From: Chloroflexota bacterium
Lineage (GTDB): Bacteria; Chloroflexota; Dehalococcoidia; UBA2979
Assembly (NCBI GenBank): GCA_947499615.1
Contig: CANMOP010000003.1
Coordinates: 32,901-96,900 of the forward strand
DNA: 64,000 bases
Direction of reading: 5' to 3'
Part shown: positions 7,063 to 9,485 of the stretch, piece by piece
Layout of the letters: the number at the start of each line of letters is the position of its first letter
Numbering within the stretch: position 1 is the first letter of the stretch
Translations under genes and position numbers: made by a program
The notes under the pieces: model-generated
Seen by the model: only the letters and a program-made list of their open reading frames with translations
Told to the model about the DNA's origin: nothing
Databases searched by the model: none

Positions 7063-8490
7063 CTATGCACTCACCATCTCCGCAGCACGACTGAGCCGCG
7101 CCACGATCTCGTCGCGCAACTCGCCGCGACGCCCCTCCGGGCGCGCGATCGCACCGATGGCGCAGTTCGTCGATTCCATGATCACGTCGATCATGTGCAG
7201 TTGATTCGCGCGCAGCGTCGTTCCGGTCTCGGAGCCCTCGATCAGGATCTCAGCATCGTCGGGAACGAACCCCTCGGACGCCCCGGCGATCGGTACCACC
7301 ACGTAGCGACCCAACCGCCGCGTCCGCGCGTACTGGTCCGCGAGCGCGACGTATTCCGAGGCGACGCGGATCGGCCGCCGAGGATCGTCGCGACGCCAGT
7401 AGGCAAGAGCCTCAGCGATGTTCGCGGCCGGCAGCGCCTCCGGCACCACTGCGCCCAGCGAATACCGGCTGCGGCGCAGGTCCGCCAGTTCGTGCACCGG
7501 CGAGCTGGGATAGGTGGCCAGGTGAGCAGCAAGCCAGTCACGCCCGGTCAGGGCGAGGTCGAACGCGCCGGTCGCTACCGCGGCAGGCATGTCCTGCGGG
7601 CGCATCACCTTCACCTCGACGTCAGGAATCGATGAGGTGGGGCGGCGCACAGCCGCAGTGGCGGTGTAGCCCTCGAACGTGATCCCGGCGTCCGCGAGGT
7701 TGGCGGCCGTGTGACGCTGCGCGTGGCCATCCGGCACAGCGATGCGCAAGGTCTGCCGCGGGAGCACGTCCCGAACGGTCAGTACACGAGCCACCTGAAG
7801 CGCCGCTGGCTCGGTGGGGCCGCCCTCGGCGACACCTCCAGGCAATCGCAGCAGCCTCTCGAGGACTGAGCCCAGGTCACGCTGCGCGAGCGCAGTCCGA
7901 TTGCCGATGAGCCATGCGGATCCGTCGTGCACCGTGCCCACCGAGACGAGGCCCTCCGCCAGCGCCGCGGCCTCCGGCAGGATCGCGAGGTCGGCGTCGT
8001 CGGGCGGCCATGCCTCGGCGGTGCCCCACACCTCGAAGAGCCGGTAGGAAGGGATGCGCAGCCGGTTGAGGTAGCGGGTCGCGAGTTGCGGGTACTCGGT
8101 GGCAACACGTACGACGCCGCTACCGGCCAGCCGCTGGAGGTCAACGCCCGGCGTCCCCGCCGCGACGATGCGCTCCGCGCCGAGGTCGAGCGCGCGCAAT
8201 GGGACGATCGAGTCGTGCCGGTGGCGCACCAACAATTCGTCCATCCACGCACGTCGAGTGATTCCGAGGTCGTACTGGCCCAGCGCGACCTGGATCGGAA
8301 TGTCGCGGTCGGAGAACACGCGCACCAACACCTCGGGCATGCCGGTAACGCTGAAGCGGTACGCACGAGAGCCCTCGCCGTACCCCTCGGGGACGAAACC
8401 GATGGCCGCGAGCTGCGCCGCGAGTGCATCGCGCAACTCGCCGCGCGGAAGCGCGACGCGGATCGTGCCGCTCATGTTCGCGGCGGTCAT
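7063..8490 (-). CDS. hisG: ATP phosphoribosyltransferase, tandem-duplicated short-form HisG (two HisG catalytic-type domains in one 475-aa chain)
   Basis: N-half starts MTAANMSGTIRVALPRGELRD...; C-half restarts LRIAVPDGHAQRH... and carries the PRPP loop (ILIEGSETGTTLRANQL); each half aligns to short-form HisG over about 220 aa; ATG overlaps the hisZ TGA (ATGA). Confidence 0.8.
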   Translation of the reverse strand: MTAANMSGTIRVALPRGELRDALAAQLAAIGFVPEGYGEGSRAYRFSVTGMPEVLVRVFSDRDIPIQVALGQYDLGITRRAWMDELLVRHRHDSIVPLRALDLGAERIVAAGTPGVDLQRLAGSGVVRVATEYPQLATRYLNRLRIPSYRLFEVWGTAEAWPPDDADLAILPEAAALAEGLVSVGTVHDGSAWLIGNRTALAQRDLGSVLERLLRLPGGVAEGGPTEPAALQVARVLTVRDVLPRQTLRIAVPDGHAQRHTAANLADAGITFEGYTATAAVRRPTSSIPDVEVKVMRPQDMPAAVATGAFDLALTGRDWLAAHLATYPSSPVHELADLRRSRYSLGAVVPEALPAANIAEALAYWRRDDPRRPIRVASEYVALADQYARTRRLGRYVVVPIAGASEGFVPDDAEILIEGSETGTTLRANQLHMIDVIMESTNCAIGAIARPEGRRGELRDEIVARLSRAAEMVSA

Positions 8491-9485
8491 CGTGGCTCGT
8501 CGCCTGCGAGGATTGCCGCGAGCCGCAGCAGATCCGCGCCGAAGCCTGATGCCGGCACGGCCCGCCCGCCTATGGCCTCGCCCAGACCGTCGTACCGGCC
8601 GCCGCTCATGCACTCCGTGCCATCCGCCAGCAGCCGGAACGTGAGCCCGGTGTAGTACTCGATGTTGCTCGCAGTCGTCGGAACCAGTCGATACGCGTTG
8701 CCCGCCGCGTCCAGCGCGGCAGCCGCAGCCTGCAACTCATCCAGCGCCGTCGAAATAGTCGGCACGACAGGCAGCAATGCGGCACGCAGGTTCTGCAGGT
8801 AGCCAGCACCGGTGCCGTCCACGCTGCAAAGCAGGCGGAGCGCCGCCGAACCCGCCGGGAAGCGGGCGGCGAGCTCCGCCGCGACGGCCAACGCACGCTC
8901 CGGGTCGGCGTTCAGCAGGCGCTCGTTCACTTCGGCGCGCTCGGCGGGGTCGAGTCCCGCAGCCTCCAGCACGGCGCGGATCAGGCCAGCGTGCGACAGC
9001 TCGAAGCGCAGCTCGCGCCCGCCAATCGCGACGAGCAGATCGCGCGCGAGCAGCAGCAGTTCTGCATCCGCCTCCAGGGCGGGGAGTCCAAACAGCTCCA
9101 CTCCGCACTGCCAGCGCTCGCGCTCACCCTCGCCGGCTTCAAAGCGGTACACCTGCTGGACGTAGCACAGGCGCGCGGGCTCTGCGGTCTGCCAGCGCTG
9201 CTCGTACCACCGCGCGGCCGGCACGGTGCCGTCCGGGCGCAACACGACACGCTCCCCGCTCCACCCGTCCCAGTCGAGGAATGAGTAGACGCGATCCAAC
9301 AACTGCGGCGAGAGCGCCGATGTCGCGGTAAACAGGTGCAGTGGCTCGATGGTGGGCGTGCGGATCTCCTGGTATCGCCGCGCCCCAGCCACGTCGAGAA
9401 ATACGCGCTCGGCGGCGCGGAACCGGCGCATCGCCTCCGGGCCCAGGTCGCGCATGCCTCGGCTGCGCAGCCCGTCGTCGAGCAT
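8487..9485 (-). CDS. hisZ: ATP phosphoribosyltransferase regulatory subunit HisZ (HisRS paralogue lacking anticodon-binding domain)
   Basis: 332-aa class-II aaRS-like core (VVLRPDGTVPAARWY motif) with no C-terminal anticodon-binding domain; first gene of the his operon immediately before hisG. Confidence 0.75.
   Translation of the reverse strand: MLDDGLRSRGMRDLGPEAMRRFRAAERVFLDVAGARRYQEIRTPTIEPLHLFTATSALSPQLLDRVYSFLDWDGWSGERVVLRPDGTVPAARWYEQRWQTAEPARLCYVQQVYRFEAGEGERERWQCGVELFGLPALEADAELLLLARDLLVAIGGRELRFELSHAGLIRAVLEAAGLDPAERAEVNERLLNADPERALAVAAELAARFPAGSAALRLLCSVDGTGAGYLQNLRAALLPVVPTISTALDELQAAAAALDAAGNAYRLVPTTASNIEYYTGLTFRLLADGTECMSGGRYDGLGEAIGGRAVPASGFGADLLRLAAILAGDEPR

What the first reader, a model, noticed from the sequence alone, without database searches (positions are those of the whole stretch)
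7063..9485. hisG is a tandem fusion of two short-form HisG domains (N-terminal copy lacks the PRPP loop), encoded next to hisZ
The 475-aa hisG product contains two consecutive short-form ATP-phosphoribosyltransferase domains of about 230 aa. Both begin with the canonical L-R-I/V-A-L/V-P-x-G strand (IRVALPRGELRD; LRIAVPDGHAQRH). Only the C-terminal copy keeps the PRPP-binding loop (DDAEILIEGSETGTTLRANQL, compare E. coli DAICDLVSTGATLEANGL). At the equivalent position the N-terminal copy reads DADLAILPEAAALAEGL, with no S/T-G-x-T-L. Short-form HisG normally works as a HisG4-HisZ4 hetero-octamer, and a hisZ gene sits immediately upstream, translationally coupled (ATGA overlap). A covalently linked pseudo-dimer with one degenerate site would change the stoichiometry and regulation of the first committed step of histidine biosynthesis. 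I am not aware of this architecture being described.
Basis: partly seen in the sequence, partly recalled or inferred. Interest (0 to 1): 0.62.

Follow-up and report, generated by a model that had tools for sequence, protein, structure and literature searches.

The report
Fused live-plus-dead HisG enzyme with HisZ
The first enzyme of histidine synthesis is encoded here as one protein made of two copies of its catalytic unit, one apparently dead, and the same pair occurs as two adjacent genes in other uncultured microbes, which points to an undescribed form of a well-studied enzyme.

Summary
ORF 7063-8490 (-) encodes 475 aa with two complete HisG (PF01634) domains joined by a 32-aa linker. It overlaps hisZ by ATGA. 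Only the C-half keeps the PRPP loop. The fusion is not an artefact: at least 80 species-level Dehalococcoidia/Chloroflexota genomes carry it, nearly all in the order hisZ-hisGG-p251-hisD.

New here: other lineages, including MAGs labelled Desulfococcaceae and Deferribacteres, carry an unfused version. It reads hisZ, an N-like hisG (~222 aa, no PRPP loop), then a C-like hisG (~240-255 aa), in the same order (6 of 6 contexts).

The losses are complementary across 84 sequences. N-like units keep the arginine equivalent to P. arcticus Arg56, which acts across the HisG dimer, in 40 of 41. They lack Arg73 and the PRPP loop. C-like units show the reverse pattern (Arg56 equivalent in 1 of 28). All 28 also have Asp-Gly-His where canonical enzymes have Lys-Gly-Arg32.

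Best reading (inferred, not assayed): an obligate pseudo-heterodimer with one composite active site per HisG pair, still controlled by HisZ. I found no description in the searchable literature, and annotation pipelines call both units plain HisG. I rate it a new variant of a known kind, interest about 0.66.

The parts
8487..9485 (-). hisZ: regulatory HisRS-paralogue subunit (332 aa). Its stop overlaps the hisGG start (ATGA).
   Evidence: PF13393 at 184.9 bits with no anticodon-binding domain. Best NCBIfam model is TIGR00443 hisZ, 187.7 bits, below the cutoff. PDB hits are HisRS and HisZ chains. Found upstream of hisGG in 74 of 80 related loci.
7063..8490 (-). hisGG: 475-aa tandem HisG-HisG protein (stop codon included).
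   Evidence: AF2 gives pLDDT 93.6 and pTM 0.89. Every PDB chain covers only one half (TMq at most 0.42, TMt up to 0.88).
7849..8469 (-). N-like HisG domain (residues 8-214), a probable pseudo-catalytic unit.
   Evidence: PF01634 at 62.3 bits. Lacks the Arg73 equivalent (Ser60) and the PRPP loop. Mean pairwise identity in the family is 64%, against 34% for the linker.
8365..8367 (-). Codon for Arg42, the equivalent of P. arcticus HisGS Arg56 (the trans-acting arginine).
   Evidence: Invariant in 120 family members. Arg occupies this column in 40 of 41 N-like units and 1 of 28 C-like units. The role of Arg56 comes from PMC9734150.
7948..7998 (-). Degenerate loop of the N-half (DADLAILPEAAALAEGL, residues 165-181), where the PRPP loop should be.
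   Evidence: Residues 167-180 are only 40% identical pairwise, about as free as the linker.
7753..7848 (-). Inter-domain linker (residues 215-246).
   Evidence: Mostly coil in the model, pLDDT 83-88. Pairwise identity 34%; length 31-46 aa across the family.
7066..7752 (-). C-like HisG domain (residues 247-475), the probable catalytic unit.
   Evidence: PF01634 at 83.8 bits, TIGR00070 at 99.4 bits. Keeps the Arg73 equivalent (Arg297) and the PRPP loop. Has an invariant Asp254-Gly-His256 in place of Lys-Gly-Arg32. Pairwise identity 76%.
7198..7260 (-). PRPP-binding loop region of the C-half (DDAEILIEGSETGTTLRANQL, residues 411-431).
   Evidence: Aligned to the (S/D)-T-G-x-T-L loops of solved HisG structures. 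E418, G419, E421, G423 and T425 are invariant. Pairwise identity of residues 415-428 is 87%.
6315..7070 (-). p251: conserved unknown gene wedged between hisGG and hisD. The likely start is the ATG at 7061, giving 248 aa.
4984..6318 (-). hisD (histidinol dehydrogenase), an operon partner.
   Evidence: PF00815 at 462.7 bits. Found downstream in 74 of 80 loci.
1923..4984 (-). Rest of the operon: hisC (3878-4984), hisB (3214-3999), DUF6941 (2763-3176) and a HisN-like IMPase (1923-2759).

Best explanation
The gene encodes the catalytic component of a short-form, HisZ-dependent ATP phosphoribosyltransferase. In it, the usual HisG homodimer is replaced by a covalently linked pseudo-heterodimer.

The C-terminal HisG unit carries the only functional active site, with the PRPP loop and the ATP gamma-phosphate arginine. 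The N-terminal unit has lost its own site. It is retained as the obligatory dimer partner and probably supplies Arg42, the counterpart of P. arcticus Arg56, across the interface. There Arg42 would help the pyrophosphate leave in the C-half site.

HisZ, made from the translationally coupled upstream gene, would still activate the enzyme and confer histidine feedback. The complex would then have half the usual number of active sites per HisG mass, for example HisZ4:(HisGG)2 with two sites.

The fusion is one form of a wider three-component system (HisZ + N-like HisG + C-like HisG). That system also exists as three separate adjacent genes.

Shown:
- the domain architecture;
- the pattern of losses in each unit;
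- conservation across lineages;
- the split form;
- the operon context.

Inferred:
- that the N-half is inactive;
- that Arg42 is donated in trans;
- that the two halves pack like a HisGS dimer;
- the stoichiometry;
- regulation by HisZ.
For: - Both halves are HisG domains above Pfam's threshold.
- The model is confident, with pTM 0.89, which fits two halves packed in a fixed arrangement.
- In an 84-sequence alignment numbered on P. arcticus HisGS, the pattern is complementary:
  - Arg56 column: canonical 13/15, N-like 40/41, C-like 1/28.
  - Arg73 column: canonical K/R 15/15, C-like R 28/28, N-like R 7/41.
  - Asp176 and Thr180-Gly181-x-Thr183: kept in C-like, absent in N-like.
- Arg56 reaches across the HisGS dimer to the PRPP pyrophosphate of the other subunit. 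R56A costs 42-fold activity, and Arg73 binds the ATP gamma-phosphate (PMC9734150; PMC10795190).
- The N-half as a whole is constrained (64% pairwise identity against 34% for the linker). Its former PRPP loop is not (40%, against 87% for the live loop).
- The fusion is present in 80 species-level genomes with conserved hisZ-hisGG-p251-hisD order.
- The split form hisZ/N-like/C-like keeps the same order in 6 of 6 contexts, with genuine stops and starts in different frames in 4 of 5 junctions.
- N-like and C-like units are separate clades in NJ bootstraps (198/200 and 184/200).
- There is no second HisG in the 64-kb window, and the gene sits in a his operon.
Against: - No coordinates or PAE were available. 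That the halves pack like a HisGS head-to-tail dimer, and that Arg42 lies near the C-half PRPP loop, was therefore not measured.
- The C-half is itself non-canonical. It has an invariant Asp-Gly-His where Lys-Gly-Arg32 is expected, and R32A costs 25-fold in P. arcticus. Its chemistry may differ.
- C-like units have their own invariant Arg282 three residues after the Arg56 column. The alignment there lies in a loop.
- The N-half keeps the Glu163 equivalent (33/41) and the Asp before the loop, so some ligand binding cannot be excluded.
- Whether these genomes also carry a canonical hisG elsewhere was not tested.
- No biochemical data exist for any family member.
Confidence: 0.62

Rival explanations
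1. The N-like unit is not merely a structural partner and arginine donor. It is a ligand-sensing regulatory module: its degenerate pocket binds an effector such as AMP/ADP, PR-ATP or histidine and modulates the C-half.
For: The N-like units keep several pocket residues. These are the Glu163 equivalent in 33/41, the Asp before the loop, and the D-I-P-I-Q-V-A-x-G-x-Y-D motif, which is more strongly conserved than in canonical HisG. Long-form HisG shows that regulation can be built into the catalytic chain (PMC10795190).
Against: HisZ, the normal histidine sensor, is always present next to the gene. The former PRPP loop evolves as freely as the linker, which argues against a conserved phosphate-binding site there. 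No ligand can be named from sequence.
Confidence: 0.2
2. The protein is no longer an ATP phosphoribosyltransferase. The altered C-like site (Asp-Gly-His) catalyses a different phosphoribosyl transfer or uses a different acceptor.
For: Lys30 is replaced by Asp and Arg32 by His in all 28 C-like units, while canonical HisG keeps Lys in 10/15 and Arg in 12/15. In my sample, the N-like and C-like units together separate from canonical HisG in 164 of 200 bootstraps.
Against: The gene is embedded in hisZ-...-hisD-hisC-hisB-hisN with overlapping stops and starts. The C-half passes the TIGR00070 equivalog cutoff (99.4 against 75.75). It keeps the Arg73 equivalent, the Glu163 equivalent and the full PRPP loop. 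No other hisG lies in the window.
Confidence: 0.08
3. Both halves are catalytically active, with the N-half using a divergent PRPP-binding solution.
For: The N-half is a well-folded HisG domain and reaches TIGR00070-level scores (75.1 bits here; 91-112 bits for stand-alone N-like proteins).
Against: The N-like units have lost Asp176, Thr180, Gly181, Thr183 and Arg73 together across 41 sequences. The loop is hypervariable and differs in length.
Confidence: 0.04
4. The single ORF is an assembly or frameshift artefact that joins two adjacent hisG genes.
For: A split two-gene version really does exist in other lineages.
Against: The same continuous ORF, with a 31-46-aa linker, is found in 120 protein clusters and 80 species-level genomes from many projects. 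These include megabase contigs and complete chromosomes.
Confidence: 0.01

Closest known systems
Short-form ATP phosphoribosyltransferase, the HisGS4-HisZ4 hetero-octamer (Lactococcus lactis, Thermotoga maritima, Psychrobacter arcticus, Acinetobacter baumannii)
   Same: HisG units of about 210-230 aa with no C-terminal regulatory domain. A HisRS-paralogue hisZ lies directly upstream. The PRPP loop, Arg73 equivalent and Glu163 equivalent are kept in the C-half. An active site that needs an arginine from the partner HisG unit is the expected working principle.
   Different: The partner is not an identical subunit. It is a diverged paralogue without its own site, fused here and a separate gene elsewhere. 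The live unit has lost the trans-arginine and carries Asp-Gly-His instead of Lys-Gly-Arg32. The expected number of active sites per complex is halved.
Long-form ATP phosphoribosyltransferase HisGL (E. coli, M. tuberculosis, C. jejuni)
   Same: A single chain longer than the catalytic core. The extra sequence on the same polypeptide plausibly has a non-catalytic role.
   Different: The HisGL extension is a small C-terminal histidine-binding domain, and the enzyme needs no HisZ. Here the extra module is a whole second HisG domain at the N-terminus, and HisZ is retained. No HisG_C domain was found.
Dead-paralogue activators ('prozymes'), e.g. Trypanosoma brucei AdoMetDC/prozyme and deoxyhypusine synthase heterotetramer (PMC5201418, PMC3663545)
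   Same: A catalytically dead paralogue is kept under selection as the obligatory partner of the live enzyme.
   Different: Unrelated folds and a eukaryotic setting. Those partners are never fused. Here a specific catalytic residue appears to be contributed by the dead partner. A second pseudoenzyme (HisZ, a dead HisRS) is part of the same complex.
Gene elongation in histidine biosynthesis (HisA/HisF half-barrel duplication; PMC7284861)
   Same: Tandem duplication, divergence and fusion of a his gene into one chain with two paralogous modules.
   Different: HisA and HisF fuse half-domains into a single barrel with a single site. Here two complete domains that normally dimerise are fused and one site is lost. 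hisG is not among the cases listed in that review.

Membership tests
HisG catalytic domain (Pfam PF01634 / NCBIfam TIGR00070) | Significant match above the curated threshold | tested here: met
   PF01634: N-half 62.3 bits, C-half 83.8 bits, gathering score 25.5. TIGR00070: C-half 99.4 bits; N-half 75.1 bits, just under 75.75. Foldseek TMt reaches 0.88 to HisGS chains.
HisG catalytic domain (functional ATP-PRT site) | PRPP-binding loop (D/E)-x-x-(D/E/S)-T-G-x-T-L | tested here: met
   Met by the C-half only (E418-G-S-E-T-G-T-T-L426), which is invariant or near-invariant. Not met by the N-half (L170-P-E-A-A-A-L) or by any of 41 N-like units.
HisG catalytic domain (functional ATP-PRT site) | Basic residue binding the ATP gamma-phosphate (P. 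arcticus Arg73) | tested here: met
   The C-half has Arg297, and 28/28 C-like units have Arg. The N-half has Ser60, and only 7/41 N-like units have Arg. The role comes from PMC10795190.
HisG catalytic domain (functional ATP-PRT site) | Arg32 (cis) of the Lys-Gly-Arg motif, which stabilises the pyrophosphate leaving group | tested here: not met
   The C-half has Asp254-Gly-His256, and all 28 C-like units have His. N-like units vary at this position. Canonical HisG has Arg in 12/15. R32A costs 25-fold (PMC9734150).
Short-form ATP-PRT (HisGS/HisZ) | No C-terminal histidine-binding domain, and a hisZ gene is present | tested here: met
   Only PF01634 is found in hisGG. hisZ is adjacent with an ATGA overlap. 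This holds in 74 of 80 loci, the remainder being cut by contig ends.
Short-form ATP-PRT (HisGS/HisZ) | HisG homodimer in which each subunit gives Arg56 to the other's site | tested here: not met
   The two units are not equivalent. The Arg56 equivalent is present only in the N-like unit and a functional site only in the C-like unit. Whether the two halves pack with HisGS-dimer geometry could not be inspected; only pTM 0.89 was returned.
Short-form ATP-PRT (HisGS/HisZ) | Hetero-octameric assembly, HisZ activation and histidine inhibition | not testable with these tools
   Needs biochemistry or a multimer model.
HisZ (TIGR00443) | HisRS catalytic-core paralogue without an anticodon-binding domain that scores as hisZ | tested here: inconclusive
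   PF13393 covers residues 10-321 and no HGTP_anticodon domain is found. TIGR00443 is the best model (187.7 bits) but falls below the cutoff of 271.65; hisS TIGR00442 scores 154.7. The genomic position supports HisZ.
Pseudoenzyme partner of a live paralogue | Catalytic motifs lost while the rest of the domain stays under constraint and is always co-encoded with the live paralogue | tested here: met
   For motif loss. Pairwise identity is 64% for the N-half, against 34% for the linker and 40% for the dead loop. The N-like unit is always fused to or adjacent to a C-like unit. Inactivity itself has not been assayed.

The most novel reading that the evidence does not exclude
There is a third architectural class of ATP phosphoribosyltransferase, alongside long-form HisGL and short-form HisGS/HisZ. 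It is a three-part enzyme made of HisZ, a dead HisG paralogue and a live HisG. The live and dead units form an obligate asymmetric dimer with one composite active site, and the dead unit supplies the trans-acting arginine. The class occurs fused in many Dehalococcoidia and as separate genes in other phyla. The complex would hold two different pseudoenzymes: HisZ, a dead HisRS, and the dead HisG.
Probability: 0.55. Interest if true: 0.72.

Novelty: new variant of a known kind. Interest (0 to 1): 0.66.

Why it matters
ATP-PRT is a textbook allosteric enzyme, an antibiotic target and an engineering target. Current mechanistic work centres on how HisZ positions Arg56 of one HisGS subunit in the neighbour's active site.

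- **A natural test of the trans-arginine model.** A natural enzyme in which one subunit keeps only the donor arginine and the other keeps only the acceptor site would work as a single-site version of the dimer. It would separate cis from trans contributions, which cannot be done in a symmetric homodimer.
- **An example of subfunctionalisation.** It would be a clear bacterial case of a homodimer splitting into a live and a dead pair, caught in both split and fused states.
- **An annotation problem.** Stand-alone N-like proteins pass the TIGR00070 equivalog cutoff and are named ATP phosphoribosyltransferase. Pathway reconstructions in these uncultured lineages therefore count a probable pseudoenzyme as a catalytic hisG.

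Tried and rejected
- **AlphaFold DB search.** The afdb50 fold library was not available, so I could not ask whether UniProt/AFDB holds the architecture in cultured organisms.
- **Model geometry.** Model coordinates are not exposed. I could not measure the Arg42-to-PRPP-loop distance or superpose the model on a HisGS dimer. I rely on pTM alone.
- **First tree attempt.** A Biopython NJ bootstrap timed out and was replaced by a numpy NJ. That tree uses only 15 canonical sequences, so the result 'N+C sister to canonical' is weak. Fused and split forms were never reciprocally monophyletic (0/200), so the direction and number of fusion or fission events stay open.
- **A supposed 400-412-aa class.** This group looked like a shorter fusion. 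It is a gene-calling truncation: the missing N-terminus is encoded in frame upstream.
- **p251 as the missing histidinol-phosphate phosphatase.** This idea is weakened because a HisN-like IMPase closes the operon.
- **Regulatory leader.** No T-box, riboswitch or other Rfam family, and no consensus promoter or terminator, was found in the 343-nt gap upstream of hisZ.
- **Second hisG.** None was found in the window.
- **Literature.** Six searches and two targeted reviews gave no description of tandem or paired HisG.
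Full report

Yes. Its ATG shares ATGA with the stop of the upstream 332-aa gene.

Pfam finds the HisG domain PF01634 twice. Scanned separately, the N-half (residues 1-242) scores 62.3 bits and the C-half 83.8 bits, against a gathering score of 25.5. TIGR00070 gives 75.1 and 99.4 bits. 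The halves are 31% identical to each other over 174 residues (E 2e-18).

phmmer alignments to solved structures show the loop difference directly. The N-half has L-P-E-A-A-A-L where C. jejuni and E. coli HisG have S-(S/T)-G-A-T-L. The C-half aligns E-T-G-T-T-L to the (S/D)-T-G-x-T-L of the M. thermautotrophicus and P. arcticus enzymes.

The upstream gene is a HisRS-core paralogue without an anticodon-binding domain. Its best NCBIfam model is hisZ, although it scores below the curated cutoff.

**2. Is it an artefact?**

No.
- A search of 5.8 billion proteins returned 891 hits. The best 120 are all 462-516 aa, full length and 61-100% identical. Where named, they are 'ATP phosphoribosyltransferase' from Dehalococcoidia or Chloroflexi MAGs.
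- A scan of one genome per GTDB species returned 80 loci. Several lie on megabase contigs or complete chromosomes.
- tblastn of the window's neighbours shows the order hisZ-hisGG-p251-hisD. hisZ is present in 74 of 80 loci, p251 in 79 and hisD in 74, with the shortfalls explained by contig ends.
- A phmmer search of 1.84 billion cluster representatives found about 17 full-length fused representatives at only 37-60% identity, so the fused family is old and diverse.
- Proteins of 400-412 aa that looked like a shorter form are truncated gene calls.

**3. Structure.**

AlphaFold2, run with the 120-sequence alignment, gives mean pLDDT 93.6 and pTM 0.89. Both halves have the same order of strands and helices, and residues 215-246 form a mostly coil linker.

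A pTM this high for a 475-residue chain implies a fixed arrangement of the halves.

In the PDB, every match covers only one half (TMq at most 0.42, TMt up to 0.88). No solved chain has this architecture.

**4. The unexpected part: a split version.**

The representative search also returned complete proteins of 213-236 aa that match only the N-half and share its hallmarks. These are G-S-R-A-Y, E-K-D-I-P-I-Q-V-A-V-G-N-Y-D-L-G, S-E-Y-P-N-L-A-E and V-W-G-A-A-E-A-Y-P-P-E, with no T-G-x-T-L. It also returned stand-alone C-half-like proteins with P-D-G-H, R-P-Q-D-M-P and E-N-T-E-T-G-x-T-L.

I retrieved six genomic contexts: L081, L082, L083, L086, L087 and L088. In all six, the N-like gene lies between hisZ and a C-like hisG, in the same N-then-C order as in the fusion. 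The five junctions examined all have real stop and start codons, and four of them change reading frame.

One of these genomes is labelled Desulfococcaceae bacterium HSG9. Another cluster is labelled Deferribacteres. The fusion in the window is therefore one form of a wider three-gene system.

**5. Complementary degeneration.**

I aligned 84 sequences: 21 fused N-halves, 20 stand-alone N-like, 21 fused C-halves, 7 stand-alone C-like and 15 canonical. Columns were numbered on P. arcticus HisGS. The numbering reproduces the published Arg32, Arg56-Lys57, Arg73 and Asp179.

The literature gives the roles of these residues:
- Arg56 of one HisGS subunit crosses the dimer interface to the PRPP pyrophosphate in the other subunit. 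R56A costs 42-fold and R32A costs 25-fold (PMC9734150).
- Arg73 binds the ATP gamma-phosphate.
- The two active sites lie on either side of the crevice of a head-to-tail dimer (PMC10795190).

| Column (P. arcticus numbering) | Canonical (15) | N-like (41) | C-like (28) |
|---|---|---|---|
| Arg56 | Arg 13 | Arg 40 | Arg 1 |
| Arg73 | Lys/Arg 15 | Arg 7 | Arg 28 |
| Asp176 | Asp/Glu 15 | hydrophobic | Glu/Asp 28 |
| Thr180-Gly181-x-Thr183 | present in 15 | absent | kept, with isolated substitutions |
| Arg32 | Arg 12 | variable | His 28 |
| Lys30 | Lys 10 | Lys/Arg 35 | Asp 28 |

In the window protein these positions are Arg42, Ser60 and L170-PEAAAL in the N-half, and Ala279, Arg297, Asp254-Gly-His256 and E418-GSETGTTL in the C-half.

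Each unit has kept what the other lacks. This is the pattern expected for an obligate heterodimer with a single composite site.

**6. Constraint.**

Across the 120 fused proteins, mean pairwise identity is as follows:

| Region | Mean pairwise identity |
|---|---|
| N-half | 64% |
| C-half | 76% |
| Linker | 34% |
| Former PRPP loop of the N-half | 40% |
| Live PRPP loop of the C-half | 87% |

The N-half is therefore maintained as a folded, functional module while its own site drifts. Linker length stays between 31 and 46 residues.

**7. Relationships.**

In NJ bootstraps, N-like units form a clade in 198 of 200 replicates and C-like units in 184 of 200. Together they separate from my limited canonical sample in 164 of 200. 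This suggests a single duplication followed by divergence. Fused and split forms are intermixed, so fusion or fission happened more than once or is unresolved. This is a rough tree and should be redone with maximum likelihood and wider sampling.

**8. Context in the window.**

The operon runs on the minus strand:
- hisZ (8487-9485)
- hisGG (7063-8490)
- p251 (6315-7061/7070)
- hisD (4984-6318)
- hisC (3878-4984)
- hisB (3214-3999)
- DUF6941 (2763-3176)
- a HisN-like IMPase (1923-2759)

The first five genes are joined by overlapping or abutting stops and starts. There is no other HisG-like ORF in the 64 kb. No known RNA leader lies upstream of hisZ.

**9. Mechanism proposed.**

The chain folds as an intramolecular mimic of the HisGS dimer. 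The C-half binds PRPP and ATP. Arg42 of the N-half completes that site across the interface. HisZ activates the enzyme and transmits histidine inhibition. The complex has half the canonical number of sites.

The steps shown and the steps inferred are listed under the best explanation. My confidence in this mechanism as a whole is about 0.6.

The main rival is that the N-like pocket has become an effector site (0.2). Neofunctionalisation of the whole enzyme (0.08), two live sites (0.04) and artefact (0.01) are less likely.

**10. Comparison with what is known, and novelty.**

It works like a short-form ATP-PRT, but it fails the 'homodimer of equivalent HisGS subunits' criterion and the Arg32 criterion. 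It is not a long form.

Conceptually it resembles dead-paralogue activators such as the trypanosome prozymes, and gene elongation in hisA/hisF.

I found no description of tandem or paired HisG in six full-text searches. Two reviews devoted to his-gene fusion and elongation do not list it either. That library lacks subscription-only papers, so absence is not proof.

Databases already hold hundreds of these sequences, all labelled plain ATP phosphoribosyltransferase. Stand-alone N-like proteins even pass the TIGR00070 equivalog cutoff at 91-112 bits.

Verdict: a real, lineage-wide and apparently undescribed variant of a known enzyme system. Interest about 0.66.

Noticed in passing
[not shown]
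   Followed up: partly
window 1923-2759 (-): An inositol-monophosphatase-family gene closes the his operon. Its best NCBIfam model is HisN histidinol-phosphatase TIGR02067, at 234 bits, which is below the cutoff of 275. It is probably the histidinol-phosphate phosphatase of this organism.
   Followed up: partly
window 2763-3176 (-): A 137-aa DUF6941 protein (PF22091, 99.5 bits) is inserted between hisB and the HisN-like gene. Its function is unknown, and its conservation in related genomes was not checked.
   Followed up: no
L084 4772-5001 (and the 400-412-aa proteins P0276-P0319): In a Dehalococcoidales-like lineage the fused hisG is consistently called about 70 residues short. The missing N-terminus (IDNLKIALPKGRLL...ERDIPIQ) is encoded in frame directly upstream of the called GTG start and right after a stop codon. 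The true start codon is unclear and may be non-canonical.
   Followed up: partly
L086 2799-5603 and L088 3430-6004: In two split-type loci a full-length hisS (with anticodon-binding domain) lies immediately upstream of hisZ. The order is hisS-hisZ-hisG(N-like)-hisG(C-like), so a live enzyme and its dead paralogue are adjacent twice in a row.
   Followed up: no
window 15327-15751 (-): Bacterial RNase P RNA class A (Rfam RF00010, 288 bits). tRNA genes lie at 40026-40097, 40132-40216, 44569-44642 and 63827-63907.
   Followed up: no
window 17128-18495 (-): A 455-aa ORF matches the Recombinase and Zn_ribbon_recom domains of large serine recombinases, but no resolvase catalytic domain was reported. 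It lies about 1.4 kb from the RNase P RNA gene. It may be a remnant of an integrated element.
   Followed up: no
window 3878-3999 (-): The longest hisB ORF overlaps hisC by 122 nt. The IGPD domain begins only at residue 65 or later (residue 95 by Pfam). The real hisB start is probably further downstream than 3999.
   Followed up: no
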